From assembly GCF_022045235.1 (NCBI RefSeq), contig NW_027266275.1, forward strand, positions 17,670,001 through 17,734,000: DNA of 64,000 bases, in the 5' to 3' direction. Shown here piece by piece: positions 21,101 through 58,731 of the stretch. Every line of letters begins with the position of its first letter. Position 1 is the stretch's first letter. The stretch comes from Haliotis cracherodii (taxonomy: Eukaryota). The translations under genes and the position numbers were made by a program. Under the pieces are notes generated by a model. It did no database searches and was not told the DNA's origin. It saw only the letters and a program-made list of their open reading frames with translations.

Positions 21101-24100
21101 TACTCAAAAGAACAGCTGATAAATCTATGTGAATGACTTCAGATCTTTTTAGTGCTAAGGTCACTTCGAGGAACAGGGCCGTGATTGTCAGGCAGTGACT
21201 TTCTGACAGTGTTATCTGTTGTTTTTTCTGGACCTTACTCACTTATACAGAGATAGCTGTGATGTAGGTGACATATACAAACTATGAGTTGTTGTATAAC
21301 TAGCTCCATGTTACAGCTGAGATTGTGGGGATATATATCCTGAGTTTATGTATAATGGCTGAGCTCCATGTTACAGCTGAGATTGTGGGATATATGGCGT
21401 GAGTTGAGTTAGTTGATGTATAACGAGCTCCATGTTACAGCTGAGATTGTGGGGATATATATCCTGAGTTTATGTATAATGGCTGAGCTCCATGTTACAG
21501 CTGAGATTGTGGGATATATGGCGTGAGTTGAGTTAGTTGATGTATAACGAGCTCCATGTTACAGCTGAGATTGTGGGATATATGTCGTGAGTTGAGTTAG
21601 TTGATGTATAACGAGCTCCATGTTACAGCTGAGATTGTGGGATATATGTCGTGAGTTGAGTTAGTTGATGTATAACGAGCTCCATGTTACAGCTGAGATT
21701 GTGGGGATATATATCCTGAGTTTATGTATAATGGCTGAGCTCCATGTTACAGCTGAGATTGTGGGATATATGTCGTGAGTTGAGTTAGTTGATGTATAAC
21801 GAGCTCCATGTTACAGCTGAGATTGTGGGATATATGTCGTGAGTTGAGTTAGTTGATGTATAACGAGCTCCATGTTACAGCTGAGATTGTGGGATATATG
21901 TCGTGAGTTGAGTTAGTTGATGTATAACGAGCTCCATGTTACAGCTGAGATTGTGGGGATATATATCCTGAGTTTATGTATAATGGCTGAGCTCCATGTT
22001 ACAGCTGAGATTGTGGGATATATGGCGTGAGTTGAGTTAGTTGATGTATAACGAGCTCCATGTTACAGCTGAGATTGTGGGATATATGTCGTGAGTTGAG
22101 TTAGTTGATGTATAACGAGCTCCATGTTACAGCTGAGATTGTGGGATATATGTCGTGAGTTGAGTTAGTTGATGTATAACGAGCTCCATGTTACAGCTGA
22201 GATTGTGGGATATATGTCGTGAGTTGAGTTAGTTGATGTATAACAAGCTCCATGTTTCAGCTGAGATTGTGGGGATGGGAGCAGCTGCAGCTGTGGACAC
22301 GATGTTCGGGTCCCGCACACGCAAGGGCATGTTCCGTACTGTGGGCCAGCTGTACAAGGAACAGCTCGCCAAACTCATGGCCACCCTCAGAAACACCAAC
22401 CCCAACTTTGTCAGGTGTATCATTCCCAACCATGAGAAGAAGGTAAATAGATGCAAGGAACAGCATGAAATCAGGATCAGTTTATGTAGGGTTGTTGTGG
22501 ACACAAATGTGTTGATTGGCTGAAATGCTTTCTGTTAAAAAAGCGCCATGCATGATTTTGATGATTCTACTTTTTATTTGTGTAGTTTGCCTTTGAGGCA
22601 AGGCATATTTTCAAATATCCACACACTGCAGCTTTGACGTAGATGAAATTATTTAAAGTGACAGTGCCACTCTCACCCTTGATACATTCTTGGCAGGACT
22701 TTCATACAACTTCATAATCCAGAGATGGAATTTGGCGAGTCAGTATGTCTAATGTTAAAGGTATTGAATGAGCCAGTTGAATTTCATAGTTTGTAAGGGG
22801 TATCTACTTTTGGGGCCTGTAAATGTTTCAGGTTGGGCTCGTAAATGTTTCAGGTTATGTTGCATCCCTGGAAGTGCACGTCACAAAGACTAATGGTTTT
22901 GTTTTTCCAACTGCAGGCTGGTAAGATAGACTCTCCCCTAGTGCTGGAGCAGCTGAGATGCAATGGTGTCTTGGAGGGCATCCGAATCTGCCGCCAAGGT
23001 TTCCCAAACAGAATCCTCTTCCAGGAGTTCCGACAGAGATACGAGATCCTCACACCCAATGCCATCCCCAGAGGATTCATGGACGGCAAAAAGGCTGTAG
23101 AGAAAATGGTAAGTACCAGAACTATTAATTGTGGTATAAATTGGGATTTTTTTGTCAACTTAAGTGTATATTCTAAGGACATAAGTACATTGTGTCACAG
23201 GCAATCTGAGAAAGTTCAATTTGAACAGGGAGAATGAAGATGAGAGAGACCCTCACCAAGAAATGACACATGATGTGTCTGTATTTTTGTGGTTAACACC
23301 ACACATGAGTTGAAGTAAATCTATTACGTACATCTCAACTTGTAAGCTGTTTCATTACAGATCAGTGCCTTGGAGTTGGACGGCAACCTGTTTCGCGTTG
23401 GTCAGAGCAAGATCTTCTTCCGTGCTGGAGTGTTGGCCCACCTGGAGGAGGAGAGAGACCTCAAGCTCACCGACATCATCATCCAGTTCCAGTCGCTTGC
23501 CAGGGGACTGTTGGCCAGAAGGTTGGTCATTTAGACACTTTTTTCCATCTTTGAGGGAGTACAGATTATCTCCCCTTAGGGGTTTTCGTTGTCCCAGTTC
23601 TCTGTGCAAGGTGTAGCATAGACTTGCTTGTATCAAAGACGTGTGTTCAAATACACTGATCATGATCCTTGGTCTTGTGAGCTCCATTCCTGTGCCTGTG
23701 CATTGCATCAAAGTGGAAGCTGACTAAGACCTGCATTACTTTGGGCTTAAGGCCTGCATTAAGCTGACATTAAAAGCTCAAAAAGGCATGAAACCCAACT
23801 TTACTCACCCTCATGAGTTTAATTATATTCTAAGAGAGTGTTGGGGAGTGTTTCAGACCTTCATCACTCCAAAGTACCGGGTTCTGTTCCCAGGGTTTTA
23901 CATAATATTGCATCCTGTATGCATTCACGATTGAAATGGGCACCAAAAAATGACATTGTAAAAAAAACAGTTGTGTTTTTCTTTAAATTTATAAAAAAAA
24001 TGTAGATTACATGTTCCATATAAACTATCGTTTCTATTTTGATACACTCAATGTTCAGTGTGTCAATGCTTGATTTTCTACATCTAACATTGAAAACATC

Positions 24101-27100: not shown

Positions 27101-30100
27101 ATATGGAACTTCGCGAATGTATCATGCTAGGTTACGAGCTGTGACATAGATTTTTCATGCATATATTTTTGCATTAAACATTGTGTCCGAGCCGAGAATT
27201 CAAGGCGACGAAAGCCGAGATGTCATTTGACTTACATTACACGCGATCGCACGAAACGATGGAAATAATAACTTAGATGTAAGTTTGATTACTTTTAGAT
27301 ATATTTTTGTTGATTTTTTTATCACTTTGTATAATATATTTAAAGATTTGTTTAAAACGTCTTTATTTTGCTCTTTGATGTGGACCCGTTGTCGAAATGT
27401 GTGTCCGAGAATTTTATTTTCAATAACATCGCGGGAAATAGTGAATAATTTTATAATTTATCGATTAAAAATGATAAATTGAAATGGAATACGTATTTCA
27501 GACATTGTGAAATGTGACAGATTTAATAAATGAATGATATTACAGGTAGATCTAGGTCCATAAAAATATATACTATTTTGATGTGACGTGAGATAAACAC
27601 ATATTGATGATTTGAGATTTTCCGAGCGCGCGCCTCGGTTAAACGGCTTATCGTCTATAACGCCCACCAATTATTTGGACCCCATTGGTAGCGTTATAGC
27701 GAGCGATCACTGTACTATCATAAAAGGCCAGGTGTGGTATTGTTTAAAGCTCCTTAATTCAGAGAATAGACACTTTTCCTCCACCTGCCGATTTTTCTTT
27801 TTTTTTAACAATACTCTGTATCTCATTTATAAAACTTATGATACTAAAAGTTGTGACGGAATGAGAATAGTTTCTATGTTGTGCTTGCTCCTGTAGTCAA
27901 TGACTGATGTGTTTACAGGCTGGAGGAGGAGGAACAGGCTCGGCAGAAACTGCAGTTGGAGAAAGTGACAAATGATGCCAAGATGAAGAAGATAGAGGAG
28001 GACATGGCAGTAGCTGAGGACATGAATCAGAAACTGCTGAAGGAGCGCAAACAGATGGAAGAGCGTATGAATGATGTCCAGGGACAAATGGTGGAAGAGG
28101 AGGAGAAGGCAAAGCAACTGGGCAAGCTGAAGAACAAGTATGAGGCCATCATTGCCGACCTTGAGGAACGACTCCGCAAGGAGCAGCAGGCTCGCCAGGA
28201 GCTGGAGAAGATCAGGCGCAGACTGGAGTCGGAGCTGAATGACCTGCGTGACCAGCTGAACGAGAAGAGGCAGCAGGTTGAGGATTTGCAGACCCAGCTC
28301 AGCAGACGTGAGGAGGAAGTGCAGCAGGCCCTTCAAAAGTAAGAACCACTTGGAGATGCAATGATGGTATTGCTTGTGGGAACCATCTTTGGGCTTACAG
28401 AAGTAAGAACCACTTGCAATGTAATGATAGTAGTGGTTGTTGGACCATGTCTAGGGCTTTTAGATGTAAGAACCACTTGGGGAAGTAATGAACATTTTAG
28501 TGGTGGTGAAGGGATTTAGACTAAATATCCATGATGGATAGATGGAAAGATTCACCGATGATTGTGGTAGTGGCAGAGTTCATGGGTGCATATTATGTGG
28601 TCCATCTTCCAGAACTGATGAGGAGTCTATAGCCAGGTCGAACATGAACAAGCAGATCCGAGAATTTCAGAACCAGATTCAGGAACTGCAGGAGGACTTG
28701 GACTCGGAGAAGGAGAGCAGGAATAAGGCAGAGAAACAGAAGAGGGACCTTAATGAGGTTGGTAACAACTTGTGCACTGTGCCTGTTCCAGACTTCACTT
28801 TTACACTCGGGACCTCGGTTACATGGCCAAGGAAGGGGCGGTCGGGTAGCCTAGTGGTTAAAGCGTTTGCTCGTCACGCCAAAGACCCGAGTTTGATTCC
28901 CGACATGGGTACAATTTGTGAAGCCCATTTCTGGTGTCCCCCGCCGTGATATTGCTGGAATATTGCTTAAAGCAGCATAAAACCACTCACTCACTCACTC
29001 ACACTCACTCACTCACTCACTCACTCACTCACTCCAAGGTACTCATGGTATATACAATCCTGTTCACTCACTAAGTGGAATTTGAATAGCGGTTTACGGT
29101 CCTTGAACAACACCTATAAGTCTTTGACACATATTCCAATCACTTTCCACATATGCTTATTTGACTTATGATTTAACTGACATACTGTTCAGAGTTTCAT
29201 TTAAACAGGAAGTCACTCATTGCACTTCCTTAGATCCCGTCAGCTAGTATTGCACAAACAGTCAAAGTGTGGCAACTGATGCTCTAAACTGTTTTCCTAT
29301 AGGAATTGGAGGCTCTGAAGACGGAGTTTGAGGCCGAGTTGGACAGCACAGCTGCTGCTGTGGAGCTGAGAACCAAGCGTGAGACTGAGATCAAGGACCT
29401 GAAGAAGTTATTGGACTTGTCTCAGCGTCAGCATGAGGAGAGCATCCAGGACATGAGGCACAAGTACCAACAGCAGATGGAGAACCTCAGCGAAGAGATC
29501 GAGACAGTCAGGAAGGTAAATAAATACTCGATCACAACAACGCACGCGAAAATTCCTGCGAAAGCCCTACCTCTATAACGTCATTGCTAATATCCTCTAT
29601 TTTCTTTGTCATCATACTTTTATGATCTTTAGATTTTCAACAGCAGTCCTCTACACAGTCAACTATCCATAATCAGTCATTTTGATAATAGTCTTCCATT
29701 GCCCAGTGCTCTTGCTCAAACATAAGGCTGGAAAACCTCACTTCTTTCTTGTGTGCGCTAGAGTACCCATATGAAAAGTATATCTAGCACGTCTTGGTAG
29801 TTTGTCACTCTGCAGTTAGTTTGTATTTCCTGAAAACAGTGCATGCCAGCTTCCTATTTGATTTTATGTGATACATTTCAGGGCAAGAACGTGATGGAGA
29901 AGAACAAGACGACCCTGGAGGCGGAGAACCAGGACCTGGCTAATGACCTGAAGCAGGTCCAGATGGCCAAGCAGGAGTCTGAGCGAAAGCGGAAGCAGGC
30001 CGAGCAGCAGCTGCAGGAGGCCTCCATTAAGCTGCAGGAGCTGGATCAGGGCCGGGGAGAGACTGTCGAGAAGGTGACGAAGCTGGCCACCGAACTGGAC

Positions 30101-46485: not shown

Positions 46486-47274
46486 CAAAGTTACAAAAGA
46501 CAACCATAAATGAAAAACACAAACATGTAACATAAAGCTTACATAAAACTGAACCTGAACATAGACATCAATGTGATCACCACACCCATACGATACTAAC
46601 ACCTCCGAGCTTTCACACATACGAGTCACCTGATTGGCTGCTCAGTACTACAAGGCATAAACAGACCACAGATTGTGTTTCGTGATTGTTGAAGATGAAT
46701 TTCAATCTGTTCAAACAACAATGAAACAACAATAACAAACAATGGAAAAGAACTGGTACACACAGGTTTGAGATTCAAGCACGCAAGGTACACACATGAT
46801 ACCTCACGCTTTCTTTGATTTTGTTATTATCTAAAGCAAATTGATCAGGAACCTGTTCCATAAAGCAAACTTAGTGCTAAGTTGGTCGTAGCTCCCATAC
46901 TTTGCATATAGGCTAGCGACCAGCTTAGCAGGAAGATTGCTTAGTCGAACGGGTTCAGCATGGATATACTATCAGAGAGAAAAATCAGATCCATCTCACT
47001 ACAAGATCACAGTGAAAGGTTGAATAATGTGCTTATTACAAACAAGGAAACTGGCAATGTGATATATAATATATAATATTATGCTGAGCTATTCTCAGAT
47101 ATCACTCTTGCAGATTTTGGATTCCACCTATAAAGTATGTCAGGATTAAATAGACCTCCAGATCTAGGCAACCTCTACAAACAGATCTAGGCCTCTTCCA
47201 AGTACAGATCTAGGCCTCTTCCAAGTACAGATCTAGGCCTCTTCCAAGTACAGATCTTGGCCTCTTCCAAGTAT

Positions 47275-47781
47275 CAGGGATGTGAAATCTCTGAGGAAAC
47301 GCGTAAAATAGCGTTTTTTCAAACAGTAGTCCTCGGAAAAAATCATCTTCCGCGTAAAAATATAATCAAAGATTTTAAAAACTCCGAAAATATGATCGAA
47401 AACCGGACAACCGTTGCGGATTGTCCTGTTTTCGATCAGAGCTTTCAGCTGCATAGGTTTTCGGACATAATACGTTTTCTATCACGAATACTTGCACTAT
47501 AACATGGGGTGTGGCGTGGCGTGGCGTCACACAAAAAATTGTAAGTTCTCAGAGTCAGATGATGGCTTGTTTTTAAGATAAAGTTGTCTTTTAGCCTGTA
47601 AGTGAATGAGATGTTTTACAGTTGTTAATGTGATTAGCGAGAAAACTATGAATGTTTCTTCAGCGTCCAAAAACCAATAACATGGGGATATATGTTGCAT
47701 TAGTGTCTTATGTTTGCAATGGAGTTGGCTTTTTTCAACTAAAGGTAAGTAAGAAGAAGGTAAGTTTTTTTCACATCCCTG
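47275..47781. mobile_element. MITE (13-bp TIR CAGGGATGTGAAA, 6-bp TSD aagtat) in satellite, copy 1
   Basis: TIRs and TSD seen directly. Confidence 0.85.
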
Positions 47782-48945
47782 AAGTATAAATCTAGGCCTC
47801 TATGTACAGATCTGGGCCTCCTCTATGTACAGATCTAGGCCTCTTCCAAGTACAGATCTGGGCCTCCTCTATGTACAGATCTAGGCCTTCTCTATGTACA
47901 GATCTGGGCCTCCTCTATGTACAGATCTGGGCCTCCTCTATGTACAGATCTGGGCCTCTTCTATGTACAGATCTGGGCCTCCTCTATGTACAGATCTAGG
48001 CCTCTATGTACAGATCTAGGCCTCCTCTATGTACAGATCTAGGCCTTCTCTATGTACAGATCTAGGCCTCTTCCAAGTACAGATCTAGGCCTCCTCTATG
48101 TACAGATCTAGGCCTCCTCTATGTACAGATCTAGGCCTACTCTATGTACAGATCTGGGCCTCCTCTATGTACAGATCTAGGCCTCCTCTATGTACAGATC
48201 TGGGCCTTCTCTATGTACAGATCTGGGCCTCCTCTATGTACAGATCTGGGCCTCCTCTATGTACAGATCTAGGCCTCTATGTACAGATCTGGGCCTCCTC
48301 TATGTACAGATCTAGGCCTTCTCTATGTACAGATCTAGGCCTCTTCCAAGTACAGATCTAGGCCTCCTCTATGTACAGATCTAGGCCTACTCTATGTACA
48401 GATCTGGGCCTCCTCTATGTACAGATCTGGGCCTCCTCTATGTACAGATCTAGGCCTCTATGTACAGATCTGGGCCTCCTCTATGTACAGATCTGGACCT
48501 CCTCTATGTACAGATCTAGGCCTCTATGTACAGATCTGGGCCTCCTCTATGTATAGATCTAGGCCTCCTCTATGTACAGATCTGGGCCTTCTCTATGTAC
48601 AGATCTAGGCCTCTTCCAAGTACAGATCTAGGCCTACTCTATGTACAGATCTGGGCCTCCTCTATGTACAGATCTAAGCCTACTCTATGTCCAGATCTGG
48701 GCCTCCTCTATGTACAGATCTAGGCCTCCTCTATGTACAGATCTGGGCCTCCTCTATGTACAGATCTGGGCCTCCTCTATGTACAGATCTGGGCCTCCTC
48801 TATGTACAGATCTAGGCCTCCTCTATGTACAGATCTAGGCCTACTCTATGTACAGATCTGGGCCTCCTCTATGTACAGATCTAGGCCTCTTCCAAGTACA
48901 GATCTAGGCCTCTTCCAAGTACAGATCTTGGCCTCTTCCAAGTAT

Positions 48946-49462
48946 CAGGGATGTGAAATCTCTGAGGAAACGCGTAAAATAGCGTTTTTTCAAACAGTAG
49001 TCCTCGGAAAAAATCATCTTCCTCGTAAAAATATAATCAAAGATTTTAAAAACTCCGAAAATATGATCGAAAACCGGACAACCGTTGCGGATTGTCCTGT
49101 TTTCGATCAGAGCTTTCAGCTGCATAGGTTTTCGGACATAATACGTTTTCTATCACGAATACTTGCACTATAACATGGGGTGTGGCGTGGCGTGGCGTGG
49201 CGTGGCGTCACGCAAAAAATTGTAAGTACTCAGAGTCAGATGATGGCTTGTTTTTAAGATAAAGTTGTCTTTTAGCCTGTAAGTCAATCACATGTTTTAC
49301 AGTTGTTAATGTGATTAGCGAGAAAACTATGAATGTTTCTTCAGCGTCCAAAAACCAATAACATTGGGATATATATTGCATTAGTGTCTTATGTTTGCAA
49401 TGGAGTTGGCTTTTTTCAACTAAAGGTAAGTAAGAAGAAGGTAAGTTTTTTTCACATCCCTG
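48946..49462. mobile_element. Same MITE, copy 2
   Basis: Identical flanks and TSD; differs by a few substitutions and two extra GCGTG units. Confidence 0.85.
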
Positions 49463-50984
49463 AAGTATAAATCTAGGCCTCTATGTACAGATGTAGGCCT
49501 CCTCTATGTACAGATCTAGGCCTCTTCCAAGTACAGATCTAGGCCTCCTCTATGTACAGATCTGGGCCTCCTCTATGTACAGATCTAGGCCTTCTCTATG
49601 TACAGATCTGGGCCTCCTCTATGTACAGATCTGGGCCTCCTCTATGTACAGATCTAGGCCTACTCTATGTACAGATCTGGGCCTCCTCTATGTACAGATC
49701 TAGGCCTCCTCTATGTACAGATCTGGGCCTCCTCTATGTACAGATCTAGGCCTTCTCTATGTACAGATCTGGGCCTCCTCTATGTACAGATCTAGGCCTC
49801 CTCTATGTACAGATCTAGGCCTACTCTATGTACAGATCTGGGCCTCCTCTATGTACAGATCTGGGCCTCCTCTATGTACAGATCTAGGCCTCCTCTATGT
49901 ACAGATCTAGGCCTACTCTATGTACAGATCTGGGCCTCCTCTATGTACAGATCTAGGCCTTCTCTATGTACAGATCTGGGCCTCCTCTATGTACAGATCT
50001 AGGCCTCTTCCAAGTACAGATCTAGGCCTTTATGTACAGATCTGGGCCTCCTCTATGTACAGATCTAGGCCTTCTCTATGTACAGATCTAGGCCTCCTCT
50101 GTATACAGATCTGGGCCTCCTCTATGTACAGATCTAGGCCTTCTCTATATACAGATCTAGGCCTCCTCTATATACAGATCTGGGCCTCCTCTATGTACAG
50201 ATCTAGGCCTCCTCTGTATACAGATCTAGGCCTCCTCTATATACAGATCTAGGCCTCCTCTATGTACAGATCTAGGCCTACTCTATATACAGATCTAGGC
50301 CTCCTCTATATACAGATCTGGGCCTCCTCTATGTACAGATCTAGGCCTCCTCTGTATACAGATCTAGGCCTCCTCTATATACAGATCTAGGCCTCCTCTA
50401 TGTACAGATCTAGGCCTACTCTATATACAGATCTAGGCCTCCTCTATGTACAGATCTGGGCCTCCTCTATGTACAGATCTAGGCCTACTCTATGTACAGA
50501 TATAGGCCTACTCTATGTACAGATCTGGGCCTCCTCTATGTACAGATCTGGGCCTCCTCTATGTACAGATCTAGGCCTACTCTATGTACAGATCTAGGCC
50601 TACTCTATGTACAGATCTAGGCCTCTTCCAAGTACAGATCTGGGCCTCCTCTATGTACAGATCTAGGCCTACTCTATGTACAGATCTAGGCCTACTCTAT
50701 GTACAGATCTAGGCCTCCTCTATGTACAGATCTGGGCCTCCTCTATGTACAGATCTGGGCCTCCTCTATGTACAGATCTAGGCCTACTCTATGTACAGAT
50801 CTAGGCCTACTTTATGTACAGATCTAGGCCTACTCTATGTACAGATCTAGGCCTCCTCTATGTACAGATCTAGGCCTCCTCTGTGTACAGATCTAGGCCT
50901 ACTCTATGTACAGATCTAGGCCTTCTCTCTGTACAGATCTAGGCCTCCTCTATGTACAGATGTAGGCTACAGTCATGTATGTAA

Positions 50985-51151
50985 CTAACTCCCTTGAGCA
51001 ATCTCTTCTTCTGTGTCCTTGTAGATGACTGATCTGCCCCAGAGTTTGGTCTTGAGAGGCACCAGTCCCATTATGACACCGCTGGCTACAACAAGCACCC
51101 CAGCAGTGTACAGCGGCACATCATAGGTTCCGAGACTGTCCTTCAGTAGGC
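50985..51151 (-). CDS. SLC16 coding exon 4
   Basis: tttcag|(G)LLKDSLGTYDVPLYTAG...QGS*. Confidence 0.9.
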
Positions 51152-54100
51152 CTGAAACACAGGTCATACAACCACTGGAGACTGGGTGCTTCACATGTGT
51201 TATAGCATTGGTTCCTTCAGCTGGACCCATACCTAAACAATTAATATATACAGTAAACCATGTTTATAACGAACTGACCGATATAATGAACTTAGTATTT
51301 AGTCCCGGCCTTTTGTTGTATATATGCTTTTAACGAACTACGGTTATTACAAACTAAAATTAGTGGTCCCTTTGAGTTCATTTTAACCATAGTTTACTGT
51401 ATATATATGTATATAATTTTTTAATTTGAAGTTAACACGATATACAGCTTTTTAATTGGACTAGAGATCGGTCACCTGACCGCAAAATTGAAAATGAAAT
51501 GACATAAACACTGACGGGCTACTTCCACATTCCTGGGGAAACCCCTTGGAATTTCCTTACACGAATACGTAAAGAAGCGTTCTTTCTGATCATTGTGACC
51601 CTTTAATCTTGAACTCAGCGTTTTAGTATGTTTTAGTATACATTGAGAAACGTCAGAGTTTGACTGCACGATCGTTCACGAATATCCCCGCTACAACCCA
51701 TCCAAACTATGGTAGTTTCGACTCGATCCGTGTCTAGGCTGGTAGTGACTGTCTACAACAAGCTATGACTTCATCTTAATGTCTATTTGACACATCTTTA
51801 ATCACCTTTCAATGATCGGCCAATTGATCAATGATGACTTAAACATGTAACCTCCATGGGTTCATTAGCAACTATCTATGATTGTGTGTTCGAATCCCGG
51901 TTCGCCCCGATTATGTTTCTAGGTTTGTCAGCACCATACCCGTGCTTGTGGGTTTCACTGAAGTGGTAAACGTCTGAGACCTGCATCACTTCGGGCTTTC
52001 CTCCCACATTAAGCTGACACGCCGCGATATGACTGGAATACTGTTAAAAGCGGCATTAAACCCAACTCACTCACTCACTCATTAGCAACTCCCAGTATTC
52101 ACAGTATCCACAGTAGTCCAGTTATATCAGTTTAATATGGGAGGAAAGTGATGCAGGTCTCAAACGTTTATCACTTTTGTGAAACCCATAGAAATGGATA
52201 TGGTGCTTACAAAGCTGGAAAGAAACTCTGCACAACAATTTGAGGCACATAAAAACAAAAGGCACCTTGATTACCTGTAATATATGTACCAAGTTTGCAT
52301 GAAAAATGTTGAATAGTTTTTCACTTCTGCTCCGGAAACGACACCTAACTCCGTTTCAGATAAGTCTAACTTGTTTCCATGGAAACAGTGAAAAATCAAA
52401 TTTTGAAAAATTCAAAAAGGCAGGAAAAGGCACCACTTCAGCCCTTGGTTAATACATGTACCAGGTTCGGATGAAAAGTCTTTCACAGTTTTCAAGTTGT
52501 GCACAGGAAATGACACCTACCCCTCCCTTTGTGGACTAAGTTCCAATTGTTTCCATGAAAATTGATACAAAATAAAAATGCCCAAAATCTGCAAATAGCA
52601 TAAGGCATCACTTCAAGATCTGTTTAATAGATCTGCCAAGTTTTGGAGAAATATATTAAACAATTTTTTACTTAGGCTTAGAAATGATTACTGACAGACA
52701 AGTCGTTGACTATATCCCCTGCTTATATGCCGGGGGAATAACAATCAAAACCTACAGTGAGCAACTTGTAAATTGAGGTTTGTGTTATTTTCCCTCCATT
52801 CACCATATGGTATATCTTGTACAAGTTCCTTTGTCAAGTGTAATACATCTCAATCACGTAATTGTGGTAAAATATCTCAGACAACCCAACTTAGAAAATC
52901 CAAAATGACACGACAGTTTCAGTACTCTGTTAATACGGGTATAACATGTCATGGATGATATATGAAAAAAATAATGATATATGATCCAGAAATGAACGCT
53001 ACAACCCATCTGTTTTTTACCTTAAGCTCTGGTAATTAATGAAAGGCACCAGTTCAGTATGTGTTTGAAGCATATGCAAAATTTTGTGAAAAATATTAAA
53101 CGGTTTCCGAGTTATGCTCAGGAAATGAAACGTGATGGCGGGCCGGACGACAGACGAATGGATGGAAGGATGGAAGGACGAACAGACAGCACTCATGCCC
53201 ATATCCCCCTCCCACTTGATGTCGGGGGATAAACACCGTGATGGTGCTCTGCTGTGGTAGTTACCTGCGATCGGAGGTCCAGCAAAACATCCAACACCAT
53301 TGGACAGCATGAGGTAGCCGACGCCATCACCCAGACTCTCAGGCCCCAGCAGGTCAGTGGTCAACACAAGAAGCAGGCCAAGGATGCCCCCAAAACCAAG
53401 ACCAACAATTGCATGAGCTACCATCAACATAACGTAGGTCTTAGCTATTGGGAAACAAATGACTCCAATACCAGAAAGCACACATACCAGCACATATAAG
53501 AAAAGCCTGTTTACACAATGGAAGTTACCAATGAAACCTGTCAGAAGAGATCCTAGAAAAGTACAAAGACCTAAAACAGTCAGCATATAAGCAGCTTCTA
53601 TACTCGTTACGCCTAGCGTTGTCAGTATGAAATCGGGTCCAAAAGTCACAACAATGTTTAGCCCCATATTCCATAAAATATTACCAACAAAAAACACATC
53701 AAATTCAAAAACACAAAAAACTAAATAATTTCGAAATCTTTTTCCTTTTGTTCCCTTATCCTGATCATTTTCCCCTATATTTTCCAACATAGTCTCATCT
53801 TCATCTCTTGTCTTCTTAGACTGAGGCAGGGGACGCAGCAGGAGACCAAACACAAACAGATTCAACATCAGTCCTGCCAGGATAATCAGCGACCCACGCC
53901 ATGTGTAGACGTCGATGAGGTAGCCGACGATGGTGGGGAACACTGTCATCCCCAGCCCCGACCCTGCTGTAGCGACTCCTGTGGCTAGGCTGGTGTGCTT
54001 GTCATAGTACAGCCCACTCATCACATGGGACGGTACATAAACAAAGCAGAACCCCAGGCCTGAAACAGATAACATATATTTAAAAACAGTGCTAGCATGT

Positions 54101-57100
54101 ATATTGACAAAAGCTTCAAAAAGACAAAAACTGTCAAATTATGTTTGAGAAATTATACTCCACAAAGTGCGTATATCTCATACACCATTTGTACACACCT
54201 GCACTGACTCCCCACAGAGTGTACATGTAGCCTATATCTCATACACACCTGCACAGACTCCCCACAGAGTGTACATGTAGCCTATATCTCACACACCTGC
54301 ACAGACTCCCCACAGAGTGTACATGTAGCCTATATCTCATACACACCTGCACAGACTCCCCACAGAGTGTACATGTAGCCTATATCTCATACACACCTGC
54401 ACTGACTCCCCACAGAGTGTACATGTAGCCTATATCTCATACACACCTGCACAGACTCCCCACAGTGTGTACATGTGGCCTATATCTCATACACACCTGC
54501 ACAGACTCCCCACAGAGTGTACATGTAGCCTATCTCTTACACACACCTGCACAGACTCCCCACAGAGTGTACATGTAGCCTATATCTCATACACACCTGC
54601 ACAGACTCCCCACAGAGTGTACATGTAGCCTATATCTCACACACCTGCACAGACTCCCCACAGAGTGTACATGTAGCCTATATCTCATACACACCTGCAC
54701 AGACTCCCCACAGAGTGTACATGTAGCCTATATCTCATACACACCTGCACAGACTCCCCACAGAGTGTACATGTAGCCTATATCTCACACACACCTGCAC
54801 TGACTCCCCACAGAGTGTACATGTAGCCTATATCTCACACACACCTGCACCGACTCCCCACAGAGTGTACATGTAGCCTATATCTCATACACACCTGCAC
54901 CGACTCCCCACAGAGTGTACATGTAGCCTATATCTCATACACCTGCACAGACTCCCCACAGTCTACATGTAGCCTATATCTCATACACACCTGCACCGTC
55001 TCCCCACAGAGTGTACATGTAGCCTATATCTCACACACACCTGCACCGACTCCCCACAGAGTGTACATGTAGCCTATATCTCATACACACCTGCACCGTC
55101 TCCCCACAGAGTGTACATGTAGCCTATATCTCACACACCTGCACCGTCTCCCCACAGAGTGTACATGTAACCTATCTCTCATACACACCTGCACCGACTC
55201 CCCACAGTGTGTACATGTAGCCTATATCTCATACACACCTGCACAGACTCCCCACAGAGTGTACATGTAGCCTATATCTCATACACACCTGCACAGACTC
55301 CCCACAGAGTGTACATGTAGCCTATCTCTTACACACACCTGCACAGACTCCCCGCAGAGTGTACATGTAGCTATATCTCTCATACACACCTGCACTGACT
55401 CCCCACAGAGTGTACATGTAGCCTATATCTCATACACACCTGCACAGACTCCCCACAGAGTGTACATGTAGCCTATCTCTTACACACACCTGCACAGACT
55501 CCCCACAGAGTGTACATGTAGCTATATCTCTCATACACACCTGCACTGACTCCCCACAGAGTGTACATGTAGCCTATATCTCACACACACCTGCACCGAC
55601 TCCCCACAGAGTGTACATGTAGCCTATCTCTCATATACACCTGCACTGACTCCCCACAGAGTGTACATGTAGCCTATATCTCATACACACCTGCACAGAC
55701 TCCCCACAGAGTGTACATGTAGCTATATCTCATACACACCTGCACAGACTCCCCACAGAGTGTACATGTAGCCTATATCTCACACACCTGCACAGACTCC
55801 CCACAGAGTGTACATGTAGCCTATATCTCATACACACCTGCACAGACTCCCCACAGAGTGTACATGTAGCCTATATCTCATACACCTGCACCGACTCCCC
55901 ACAGAGTGTACATGTAGCTATATCTCATACACACCTGCACAGACTCCCCACAGAGCGTACATGTAGCCTATATCTCACACACCTGCACAGACTCCCCACA
56001 GAGTGTACATGTAGCCTATGTCTCATACACACCTGCACAGACTCCCCACAGAGCGTACATGTAGCTATATCTCATACACACCTGCACAGACTCCCCACAG
56101 AGTGTACATGTAGCTATATCTCATACACACCTGCACAGACTCCCCACAGAGTGTACATGTAGCTATATCTCATACACACCTGCACAGACTCCCCACAGAG
56201 CGTACATGTAGCCTATATCTCACACACCTGCACAGACTCCCCACAGAGCGTACATGTAGCCTATATCTCACACACACCTGCACCGACTCCCCACAGAGTG
56301 TACATGTAGCCTATATCTCACACACCTGCACAGACTCCCCACAGAGCGTACATGTAGCCTATATCTCATACACCTGCACAGACTCCCCACAGAGTGTACA
56401 TGTAGCCTATATCTCATACACACCTGCACAGACTCCCCACTGAGCGTACATGTAGCCTATATCTCACACACCTGCACAGACTCCCCACAGAGCGTACATG
56501 TAGCCTATATCTCACACACACCTGCACCGACTCCCCACAGAGTGTACATGTAGCCTATATCTCACACACCTGCACAGACTCCCCACAGAGCGTACATGTA
56601 GCCTATATCTCATACACCTGCACAGACTCCCCACAGAGTGTACATGTAGCCTATATCTCATACACACCTGCACAGACTCCCCACAGAGCGTACATGTAGC
56701 CTATATCTCACACACCTGCACAGACTCCCCACAGAGCGTACATGTAGCCTATATCTCATACACACCTGCACAGACTCCCCACAGAGCGTACATGTAGCCT
56801 ATATCTCATACACCTGCACCGACTCCCCACAGAGTGTACATGTAGCCTATATCTCATACACCTGCACAGACTCCCCACAGAGTGTACATGTAGCCTATAT
56901 CTCATACACCTGCACAGACTCCCCACAGAGCGTACATGTAGCCTATATCTCATACACCTGCACAGACTCCCCACAGAGCGTACATGTAGCCTATATCTCA
57001 TACACCTGCACAGACTCCCCACAGAGTGTACATGTAGCCTATATCTCATACACACCTGCACAGACTCCCCACAGAGCGTACATGTAGCCTATATCTCATA

Positions 57101-58731
57101 CACCTGCACAGACTCCCCACAGAGTGTACATGTAGCCTATATCTCATACACACCTGCACAGACTCCCCACAGAGCGTACATGTAGCCGATGCTGGGCAGG
57201 AATGGCACACATAGTATACTGGCAGAACTCAGCCCAGCACCAATCAATACGATGGTCCGATGGCTTAGGTAGTTCATCAACAAACTTGCGAGTGGACCTG
57301 CAGAAAAAAACCATAATATTTTACAAAGTATCAATATGGATTCATGTGAATAAGGTAAGAAATAAGCCTCAGCACAAGTGTCAAAGGGTCAACAACATAA
57401 TATGGTGTTGTAGAACTGGGAGTCATCATGACTCACTCCATACCAACAGCCACGGTTGAAACTAGCCCATGATTGAGTCGTCATGACTCACTGCACACAG
57501 ATAGGTTTCACCCTGCCCATGATTGAGTCGTCATGACTCACTGCACAGATAGGTTTCACCCTGCCTATGATTGAGTCGTCATGACTCACTGCACACAGAT
57601 AGGTTTCACCCTGCCTATGATTGAGTCGTCATGACTCACTGCACACAGATAGGTTTCACCCTGCCTATGATTGAGTCGTCATGACTCACTGCACACAGAT
57701 AGGTTTCACCCTGCCTATGATTGAGTCGTCATGACTCACTGCACACAGATAGGTTTCACCCTGCCCATGATTGAGTCGTCATGACTCACTGCACACAGAT
57801 AGGTTTCACCCTGCCCATGATTGAGTCGTCATGACTCACTGCACACAGATAGGTTTCACCCTGCCCATGATTGAGTCGTCATGACTCACTGCACACAGAT
57901 AGGTTTCACCCTGCCTATGATTGAGTCGTCATGACTCACTGCACACAGATAGGTTTCACCCTGCCTATGATTGAGTCGTCATGACTCACTGCACACAGAT
58001 AGGTTTCACCCTGCCTATGATTGAGTCGTCATGACTCACTGCACACAGATAGGTTTCACCCTGCCTATGATTGAGTCGTCATGACTCACTGCACACAGAT
58101 AGGTTTCACCCTGCCCATGATTGAGTCGTCATGACTCACTGCACACAGATAGGTTTCACCCTGCCCATGATTGAGTCGTCATGACTCACTGCACACAGAT
58201 AGGTTTCACCCTGCCTATGATTGAGTCGTCATGACTCACTGCTAACAGATAAGTTTTCACTAATGGGATCGGGTGGTCAGGCTTGCTGACTTGGTTGATG
58301 CATGTCATCGTATCCAAATTGCGTGGATCGATGCTCATGATGTCAATCAATGAATTGTTTGGTCCAGACTTGATTATTTTACAGACTGACGTCATATAGC
58401 TGGAATATTGCTGAGTGTGGCGTTAAACAACAAACAAACAAAACAAAGCATACCAACAGCCAGGTTTCACCCAGCCTATGTAAAGTAATGAGTCATCAGT
58501 ATAGTGGTCAGAGTGTGTGGGTGAGGACGAGAAACACCTACCTGAACCAAGGAAGCAGCCTGTGTTTATTGCTGCCACTAATGACACTGAAAAGGCGTCG
58601 CCAGTGACAGCGAGTAACTCGATATTGTAGAGACCAATCGACAGGCCAGTGCCAAAAGCTAGAAACTGGATCATGAAGGCCGACAAGATGATGGCCAGCC
58701 CCCAGTATCCTCCATTCACGTCCTTGATCAT
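50985..58731 (-). CDS. Monocarboxylate transporter (SLC16/MCT family, MFS), 4 coding exons, 431 aa
   Basis: Exons 58731-58542, 57297-57154, 54059-53265 and 51151-50985 total 1296 nt in frame. N-terminal NGGYWG (DGGWGW-like) motif, YYDKHTSLATGVATAGSGLG, YTWRGSLIILAG, GPPIAG. Confidence 0.92.
51251..51399. mobile_element. Tigger/pogo-like MITE
   Basis: TA|CAGTAAAC...GTTTACTG|TA. Confidence 0.7.
51485..51840 (+). repeat. Unclassified interspersed repeat, second copy at about 60055-60400
   Basis: Collinear similarity (taaacactgac...ttcctggggaaaccc...catccaaactatgg...atgatcggcc). Confidence 0.7.
51887..52080 (+). mobile_element. SINE family C copy with adjacent inverted fragment (about 52115-52212)
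   Basis: Match to 4958-5150. Confidence 0.78.
52250..52742 (+). mobile_element. Helentron/HINE-like element; related 3' end at 53020-53233
   Basis: Same internal repeats; terminal hairpins ATCCCC...GGGG(G)A(T) followed by A-rich end. Confidence 0.6.
53265..54059 (-). CDS. SLC16 coding exon 3
   Basis: tttcag|(G)LGFCFVYVP...GPPIA(G)|gtaac. Confidence 0.93.
54192..57187 (-). repeat. 48/50-bp minisatellite derived from the SLC16 exon-2 5' splice site
   Basis: About 60 units of (minus strand) GCTACATGTACACTCTGTGGGGAGTCTGTGCAG|GTGTGTATGAGATATAG. Confidence 0.95.
57154..57297 (-). CDS. SLC16 coding exon 2
   Basis: ttctgcag|(G)PLASLLMNYLSHRTIVLIG...YALWGVCA(G)|gtgtgt. Confidence 0.9.
57465..58258. 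repeat. 50-bp minisatellite with TGAGTCGTCATGACTCA quasi-palindrome
   Basis: About 15 near-perfect units. Confidence 0.95.
58259..58446 (+). mobile_element. SINE-like family A, 5'-truncated
   Basis: Family match with (CAAA)n tail. Confidence 0.8.
58542..58731 (-). CDS. SLC16 coding exon 1
   Basis: MIKDVNGGYWGLAIILSAF...FLGS(G)|gtaggt; in-frame stop upstream of the ATG. Confidence 0.85.

What the first reader, a model, noticed from the sequence alone, without database searches (positions are those of the whole stretch)
54192..57187. SLC16 intron built almost entirely from about 60 copies of its own exon end and donor
Seen (minus strand): each unit is the last 33 nt of exon 2 plus GTGT(GT)ATGAGATATAG, filling about 3.0 of the 3.1-kb intron. 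Most units therefore offer (a) a CAG|GT site, where splicing from the real donor would regenerate the same junction like a recursive-splicing ratchet point, and (b) an AG-33 nt-GT in-frame mini-exon (GYMY(T/A)LWGVCA) that duplicates part of a transmembrane segment. Read-through to the next donor meets TAG in the spacer or shifts frame. Established: tandem duplication of AG|GT is a proposed route of intron gain. With the myosin acceptor array, this suggests a recurrent splice-junction amplification process in this genome.
Basis: partly seen in the sequence, partly recalled or inferred. Interest (0 to 1): 0.74.

Follow-up and report, generated by a model that had tools for sequence, protein, structure and literature searches.

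The report
Splice-donor minisatellite filling a transporter intron
A 50-base piece covering the end of an exon and its splice signal is copied 60 times into an old intron of a transporter gene, yet the assembled transcripts use the first signal, so it is likely a harmless example of the 'mirage' repeats known from lancelets and humans, which turn out to sit at about 1-3% of the splice junctions sampled in this genome.

Summary
Observation confirmed: 60 units of 48-51 nt (last 34 nt of exon 2 plus the donor and a spacer) fill 2955 of 3094 nt of intron 2 of an intact SLC16-type gene. The intron is ancient (same position in 64 of 70 paralog regions), so this is not intron gain. Spliced contigs from several runs join the first donor to exon 3, and no mini-exon or downstream-donor joint was listed. 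The copied donors are strong, the copied acceptors weak, and any exon extension meets TAG. Recursive splicing is untested and unlikely. The architecture is a known kind: amphioxus 'mirage' minisatellites and the human CBS and ABCA7 VNTRs. The scan noted the same kind earlier on other DNA of this genome and in other genomes. Added here is a count. Junction-spanning arrays sit at 9 of 338 SLC16-paralog junctions (about 5-fold over shifted controls) and 10 of 840 dynein junctions (1.3-fold, not significant); pooled 1.9-fold (95% 1.0-3.0). Recurrence is shown; a splice-directed amplification process is suggested only weakly.

The parts
58542..58731 (-). Coding exon 1 of the SLC16/MCT-type transporter gene
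   Evidence: Open frame and GT donor; contigs of runs X1, X5, X10 join it to exon 2 (loose ends at 57300)
57154..57297 (-). Exon 2, 144 nt, phase 1-1; its last 34 nt are the first copy of the repeat
   Evidence: length 144 or 147 nt in 62 of 64 paralogs
57148..57153 (-). True donor CAG|GTGTGT, used in the spliced contigs
   Evidence: Contigs X10, X1 and X2; X9 joins a diverged exon 2 end to exon 3; PWM 11.9 bits
54192..57187 (-). Junction-spanning ('mirage') minisatellite: 60 downstream units, each ending in CAG|GT
57137..57139 (-). In-frame TAG in the first spacer; any extension of exon 2 to a later donor carries this stop
54060..54198 (-). 139-nt non-array tail of intron 2 with the true acceptor; holds a degenerate last unit
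   Evidence: best AG of the intron, 12.9 bits; loose ends at 54138 in X1 and X19
53265..54059 (-). Exon 3, 795 nt
50985..51151 (-). Last coding exon to the stop codon
   Evidence: homologous acceptor called in 35 paralogs
21287..22276 (+). Second array of the same kind in the window: acceptor plus exon start of a myosin II heavy-chain exon, 16 copies including the true site at 22261
   Evidence: the name myosin II is recalled from the exon's translation and comes from no call

Best explanation
A minisatellite made of the last 34 bases of exon 2, its donor and a short spacer fills 95% of an ancient intron, and the assembled transcripts splice from the first donor to exon 3, so the 60 extra donors are likely tolerated decoys with no function. 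Inferred origin: one tandem duplication across the exon-intron boundary, then expansion and homogenisation by slippage and unequal exchange, as for any minisatellite; the copy nearest the exon stays the working one. Inferred splicing: exon definition pairs the exon 2 acceptor with the nearest donor. Later donors have no good acceptor upstream, and any extension of exon 2 carries an in-frame TAG and would be removed by nonsense-mediated decay. The likely cost is a small leak of dead transcripts, as reported for ABCA7.
For: Shown: unit anatomy. Intron position conserved in 64 of 70 paralog regions. First-donor to exon 3 joins in contigs of X10 and X1 and X2; X9 joins a diverged exon 2 end to exon 3. 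Copied CAG scores at most 5.6 bits as an acceptor, and only 2.3% of 132 true acceptors score that low; the mini-exon AG scores -5.4 to -0.5, background level. 0 of 60 units have YTNAY upstream; pyrimidine fraction 0.45 and 0.35 against 0.65 at the true site. The exon-type base at -22 occurs in 14 of the first 25 units and 0 of the last 35, the pattern of local turnover. In 17 other arrays 211 of 221 copies keep GT/AG, no lower than neighbouring columns (0.917 vs 0.929), so there is no sign of purging. Precedent: amphioxus mirages reported not to disturb splicing (PMC3087553 and PMC3902484, passages).
Against: 30 of 60 copied donors are identical to the true 10-mer, so competition is real. The contigs are shallow (depth 4-18) and drop rare forms, so a leak was not measured. 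Array units with spacer are abundant in X1 and X2, and X1 has an intron-tail contig; this may be pre-mRNA, retained intron, DNA or extended exons. The true acceptor also lacks YTNAY in the stretch tested, so that test is weak. Units are present in runs labelled with other organisms (X1, X2, X15, X19), so the array has persisted for some time. The 5-fold excess in SLC16 paralogs is not explained by neutral placement.
Confidence: 0.78

Rival explanations
1. The array works as a recursive-splicing ladder: the true donor splices to an internal CAG, or an internal donor splices to exon 3 and the true donor then uses the regenerated CAG; both routes give the normal mRNA.
For: All 60 units end in CAG|GT and 30 regenerate the exact donor. 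The copied CAG scores near the 95th percentile of background AGs. The mature junction cannot tell these routes from one-step splicing.
Against: Acceptor strength is below the 5th percentile of true acceptors. The intron is 3.1 kb, whereas multi-step introns averaged 40 kb in dystrophin, though with a range from 650 nt (PMC4829307, passages). No contig joining an array-type unit to exon 3 was listed (14 pieces not shown).
Confidence: 0.06
2. The array is a copy-number dial: more units mean more use of later donors or more retention, more decay, and less transporter, as for the human CBS and ABCA7 VNTRs.
For: Same architecture as CBS c.1444_1467+7(16_21) (PMC2630376, passages). ABCA7 retains one unit, giving a premature stop and decay (PMC5954066, passages). 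Abundant unit contigs in X1 and X2.
Against: No genotype-expression data here. In ABCA7 one-unit retention did not scale with VNTR length. Unit contigs may be DNA or pre-mRNA.
Confidence: 0.1
3. The AG-33 nt-GT segments are used as in-frame mini-exons that add 11 residues to a membrane segment, a first step to new introns.
For: 52 of 60 units have the AG and keep the frame. The model was proposed for amphioxus globins and one case is reported in potato (PMC4974935, abstract).
Against: The AG scores at background with 0.35 pyrimidines. No core-to-core joint was listed in the 7 different runs laid. In the potato case the duplicate carried the parental polypyrimidine tract and acceptor; a donor-side duplicate like this one does not.
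Confidence: 0.03
4. The array is an assembly artefact.
For: Tandem arrays are hard to assemble, and copy number was not verified independently.
Against: 28 distinct unit types in ordered succession. Unit-to-unit contigs occur in independent DNA-like runs X15 and X19 at far higher summed depth than single-copy flanks.
Confidence: 0.01

Closest known systems
Amphioxus 'mirage' minisatellites (Adh3, globins BflGb6 and BflGb9, troponin C, PGBD5); passages read in PMC3087553 and PMC3902484; the original Adh3 paper was not held
   Same: Tandem copies spanning an exon-intron boundary, on donor or acceptor side; copies keep AG/GT; normal splicing reported; boundary copy escapes homogenisation; the same intron-gain model was already proposed.
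   Different: Here 60 extra copies fill 95% of the intron (globin cases 3-6 units). A different genome, which earlier scan notes call an abalone (not checked here). Frequency at junctions was counted here; length or somatic instability was not tested.
Human CBS 31-bp VNTR c.1444_1467+7(16_21); passages read in PMC2630376; the splicing paper (Lievers 2001) was not held
   Same: By its nomenclature the unit is 24 exon bases plus 7 intron bases, so every unit carries exon end and donor.
   Different: 16-21 units and a known population polymorphism; here 61 copies and no population data.
Human ABCA7 intron 18 25-bp VNTR; passages read in PMC5954066
   Same: Starts at the donor; use of the next donor retains one unit and gives a premature stop subject to NMD.
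   Different: The unit begins at the GT; disease association and next-exon skipping are measured there, and nothing comparable is shown here.
Intron gain by tandem duplication (Rogers model as cited; human ITRs in PMC2812944, passages; potato RdRp in PMC4974935, abstract)
   Same: A tandem duplication carries AG|GT.
   Different: No new intron: the host intron is shared by 64 paralogs, and no second intron appears in the contigs.
Recursive splicing ratchet points; passages read in PMC4829307
   Same: Juxtaposed AG|GT that would regenerate a donor.
   Different: Weak acceptors, short intron, lineage-specific repeat, no intermediate seen.

Membership tests
Mirage minisatellite | Tandem units that span an exon-intron boundary of the host gene | tested here: met
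   Unit = 34 exon nt plus 14-17 intron nt, 60 copies
Mirage minisatellite | Copies keep splice signals | tested here: met
   60 of 60 keep CAG|GT
Mirage minisatellite | The mRNA is spliced at the genuine boundary | tested here: met
   First-donor joins in X1, X2, X10, and an exon 2 to exon 3 join in X9; rare forms not measurable in contigs
Mirage minisatellite | Concerted turnover with a divergent boundary copy | tested here: met
   Polar spread of the -22 variant; degenerate last copy in the tail
Mirage minisatellite / VNTR | Copy number varies between alleles or cells | not testable with these tools
   Contigs collapse the array; no long reads were laid
Intron gain by tandem duplication | The intron is absent from relatives and paralogs | tested here: not met
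   Same position and phase in 64 of 70 paralog regions; 2 regions had no site there and 4 were not called
Intron gain by tandem duplication | A duplicated segment is included as a new exon | tested here: inconclusive
   No core-to-core joint listed, but contigs drop rare forms
Recursive splice site | AG immediately followed by a donor | tested here: met
   60 CAG|GT sites
Recursive splice site | The AG is a competent acceptor (pyrimidine tract, branch point) | tested here: not met
   At most 5.6 bits, below the 5th percentile (6.3) of 132 true acceptors; pyrimidines 0.45
Recursive splice site | Splicing intermediates or lariats at the site | not testable with these tools
   Needs nascent RNA or lariat reads; only contigs were laid
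SLC16 / monocarboxylate transporter family | Best match to TIGR00892 and shared exon structure with paralogs | tested here: met
   E 2e-34 for exon 3, below the whole-protein cut-off; family search lists the window's exon among 104 matches

The most novel reading that the evidence does not exclude
In this genome minisatellites are born or kept preferentially at splice junctions, about twice as often as chance overall and five times in SLC16 genes. One to three percent of all junctions then carry ladders of intact decoy splice sites, which extrapolates to thousands of natural, length-variable tests of how the spliceosome picks the first of many identical donors, and a standing supply of material for new exons and introns.
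Probability: 0.35. Interest if true: 0.58.

Novelty: new member of a known kind. Interest (0 to 1): 0.32.

Why it matters
The locus itself is an extreme but ordinary mirage repeat. It is useful as a natural reporter, with 61 near-identical donors of which the assembled RNA shows only the first in use. The wider count matters more. Mirages are known from a handful of lancelet genes, and my searches of the held library listed no paper whose title or abstract start reports a genome-wide frequency or enrichment test. If the roughly two-fold excess holds with full annotation, it would point to a mutational or retention bias at exon edges and make the tandem-duplication route to intron gain testable at scale. 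If it does not hold, it shows that decoy donors are close to neutral in a repeat-rich genome.

Tried and rejected
Intron gain: rejected by paralog intron positions. My early idea that the 139-nt tail is the untouched ancestral intron start was dropped, because runs X1 and X19 show a more complete degenerate unit there. Replication of the SLC16 enrichment in dynein genes failed to reach significance: 10 of 840 vs 92 of 10152 shifted positions, P 0.24; with 6 hand-called cases among 290 uncalled exon edges, 16 of 1130 vs 10.2 expected, P 0.06. An apparent excess retention of GT/AG in copies (P 0.004) vanished with a local, column-matched test (0.917 vs 0.929) and was rejected as an alignment effect. 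No RNA holder listed: none of the 19 runs holding exon 3 is on record as RNA. The 3' end of intron 1 had no cover in X1, X5 and X10, and 54139-54191 had none in any run; these blanks are not used as evidence. L111-L120 (flanks of the window) were fetched and not analysed. Two primary papers were not held. No supplements were read; the amphioxus globin supplements (alignments of the mirage units) may bear on the comparison.

Full report
Observation. The array is there as described. TRF reports 54192-57187, period 50, 60.8 copies. The host is an intact four-exon, 431-codon gene on the minus strand with three phase-1 GT-AG introns; exon 3 matches the monocarboxylate transporter model TIGR00892 best. 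Intron 2 (57153-54060, 3094 nt) consists of 60 units of 48-51 nt in 28 types and a 139-nt tail. Every unit ends in CAG|GT; 52 of 60 have AG before the 33-nt core. The exon-derived part is 34 nt, so that AG is a product of the duplication joint (sequence, TRF edge). A DNA search of the genome found the unit only inside this array (26 of 26 matches; counts are lower bounds).

The intron is old. A family search gave 104 exon matches from 74 of 403 candidates scored. I listed 73 of these rows as separate genes, dropped 3 that look intronless, and fetched 70 regions. In 64 of the 70 both the exon 2 donor and the exon 3 acceptor were called, at the same codon and phase as in the window; exon 2 is 144 nt in 45 and 147 nt in 17 of them; 2 regions had no site there and 4 were not called. 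Intron 2 lengths run from 126 to 4664 nt, median 748. The array therefore expanded inside an existing intron. That human MCT1 has the same 144-nt exon is recalled and was not tested.

Splice signals. Weight matrices from 171 donors and 132 acceptors of the paralogs score the true donor at 11.9 bits, and 30 of 60 copies are the identical 10-mer. As acceptors the copied CAG sites reach at most 5.6 bits, and 2.3% of true acceptors score that low; the mini-exon AG scores -5.4 to -0.5; the true acceptor is the best AG in the intron at 12.9. No unit has YTNAY upstream, but neither does the true acceptor in the stretch tested. Any extension of exon 2 meets TAG at 57139-57137, well upstream of the last junction, so decay is expected from general knowledge of NMD.

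Transcripts. Contigs were laid on two stretches that each hold about one unit, 4 runs per call and 7 different runs of the 24 listed. X1, X5 and X10 join exon 1 to exon 2. X10 (255 letters) and X1 (9 letters) run from the first donor into exon 3; a 1328-nt contig of X2 runs from exon 3 through the core into unique exon 2; X9 joins exon 3 to a diverged exon 2 end. No core-to-core joint and no array-type unit joined to exon 3 was listed, with 23 and 14 pieces not shown. Against a clean picture: unit contigs with spacer are abundant in X1 and X2 (summed depth up to about 210 and 94 against about 7 for the exon), and X1 has an intron-tail contig; these may be pre-mRNA, retention, DNA or extended exons. 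Units also stand in DNA-like runs X15 and X19 of another organism label, with a more complete degenerate last copy, so the array is neither an artefact nor private to this assembly. The mature junction cannot exclude recursive routes.

Recurrence and enrichment. In the SLC16 paralogs, with the window left out, 9 of 338 junctions carry a spanning array of at least 3 copies against 1.85 expected or 15 of 3095 shifted positions; two of the nine share a unit, leaving 8 independent. As an unrelated set I took 16 of the roughly 18 dynein heavy-chain genes found, 50 kb each, annotated with a profile of 39 long proteins out of 150. There 10 of 840 called junctions carry such an array against 92 of 10152 shifted positions, 1.3-fold, P 0.24. 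Six more were called by eye among 290 uncalled exon edges, giving 16 of 1130 against 10.2, P 0.06. With a null limited to fully called introns and a bootstrap over genes the folds are 5.2 (2.0-9.9) for SLC16, 1.34 (0.59-2.54) for dyneins and 1.86 (1.0-3.0) pooled. Dynein introns hold 2.4 times more arrays per kb than SLC16 introns, which is why the null differs. So the arrangement recurs at about 1-3% of junctions; enrichment is modest, uneven and not established. In 17 other arrays 211 of 221 copies keep GT/AG, about as well as neighbouring columns: no purging and no special retention.

How it likely works. Shown: anatomy, old intron, use of the first donor in assembled RNA, strong copied donors, weak copied acceptors, the stop codon. 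Inferred: a single duplication across the boundary followed by ordinary minisatellite turnover (the exon-type base at -22 is in 14 of the first 25 units and none of the last 35); choice of the nearest donor by exon definition; removal of rare extended transcripts by NMD. I put this at 0.78, a copy-number effect on expression at 0.10, recursive splicing at 0.06 and mini-exon use at 0.03.

What is known. [quoted passage not shown] The human CBS VNTR has the same exon-end-plus-donor unit by its nomenclature (PMC2630376, passages). The ABCA7 VNTR shows one-unit retention and decay (PMC5954066, passages). Repeats at exon-intron boundaries in human segmental duplications are treated in PMC2812944 (passages). 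PMC10078293 (passages) catalogues splicing-associated repeats and gave nothing on this architecture in the passages shown. PMC4974935 was read as abstract only and PMC4829307 as passages. The primary CBS and Adh3 papers were not held. I reached the mirage reading; earlier scan notes seen later report the same kind at three other places in this genome and in two other genomes, one of them with no excess over chance. They are unchecked, and the label 'abalone' comes from them.

Verdict. Real, striking in size, and a new member of a known kind. Interest 0.32.

Noticed in passing
window 21287-22276 (+): Myosin acceptor array: 15 extra copies of acceptor plus exon start, each with TTACAG where the true site has TTTCAG, scoring 4.5-6.3 bits against 6.7.
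   Followed up: partly
window 28337-28479 (+): A 63-nt, 2.2-copy repeat starts at a donor of the same plus-strand gene and repeats GTAAGA with about 2 exon bases.
   Followed up: no
window 47797-50967 (-): A 23-nt array of about 139 copies starts 18 nt behind the transporter's stop codon, probably in its 3' UTR.
   Followed up: no
window 48945-49463 and 47274-47782: Two copies (501 of 509 aligned bases identical) of a roughly 510-nt element with 14-nt terminal inverted repeats and identical flanks, in and beside the 23-nt array; it looks like a MITE duplicated together with the array.
   Followed up: partly
window 57465-58256: A 50-nt, 16-copy array in intron 1 that does not touch a junction; its unit holds a palindromic core, and run X15 has it too.
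   Followed up: no
L104:1337-3410, L060:3021-4380, L066:3668-5049, L043:6776-7911, L063:2409-3251: Other large junction-spanning arrays in SLC16 paralogs: 28 nt x 74, 42 x 32, 44 x 31, 42 x 27 and 74 x 11; 7 of the 9 flank exon 2.
   Followed up: partly
L054:4793-5210: An acceptor array whose copies have all lost the AG (0 of 3), the one clear case of dead copies among 17.
   Followed up: no
L133-L212 (dynein heavy-chain introns): Arrays of at least 3 copies are 2.4 times denser in dynein introns than in SLC16 introns (0.256 vs 0.106 per kb); among called dynein cases donor-side arrays outnumber acceptor-side 12 to 4.
   Followed up: partly
G000 contig C67 and L011-L013: The SLC16-type family is greatly expanded (at least 73 genes listed, most on C67, many in tandem), with three apparently intronless members clustered on C12.
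   Followed up: no
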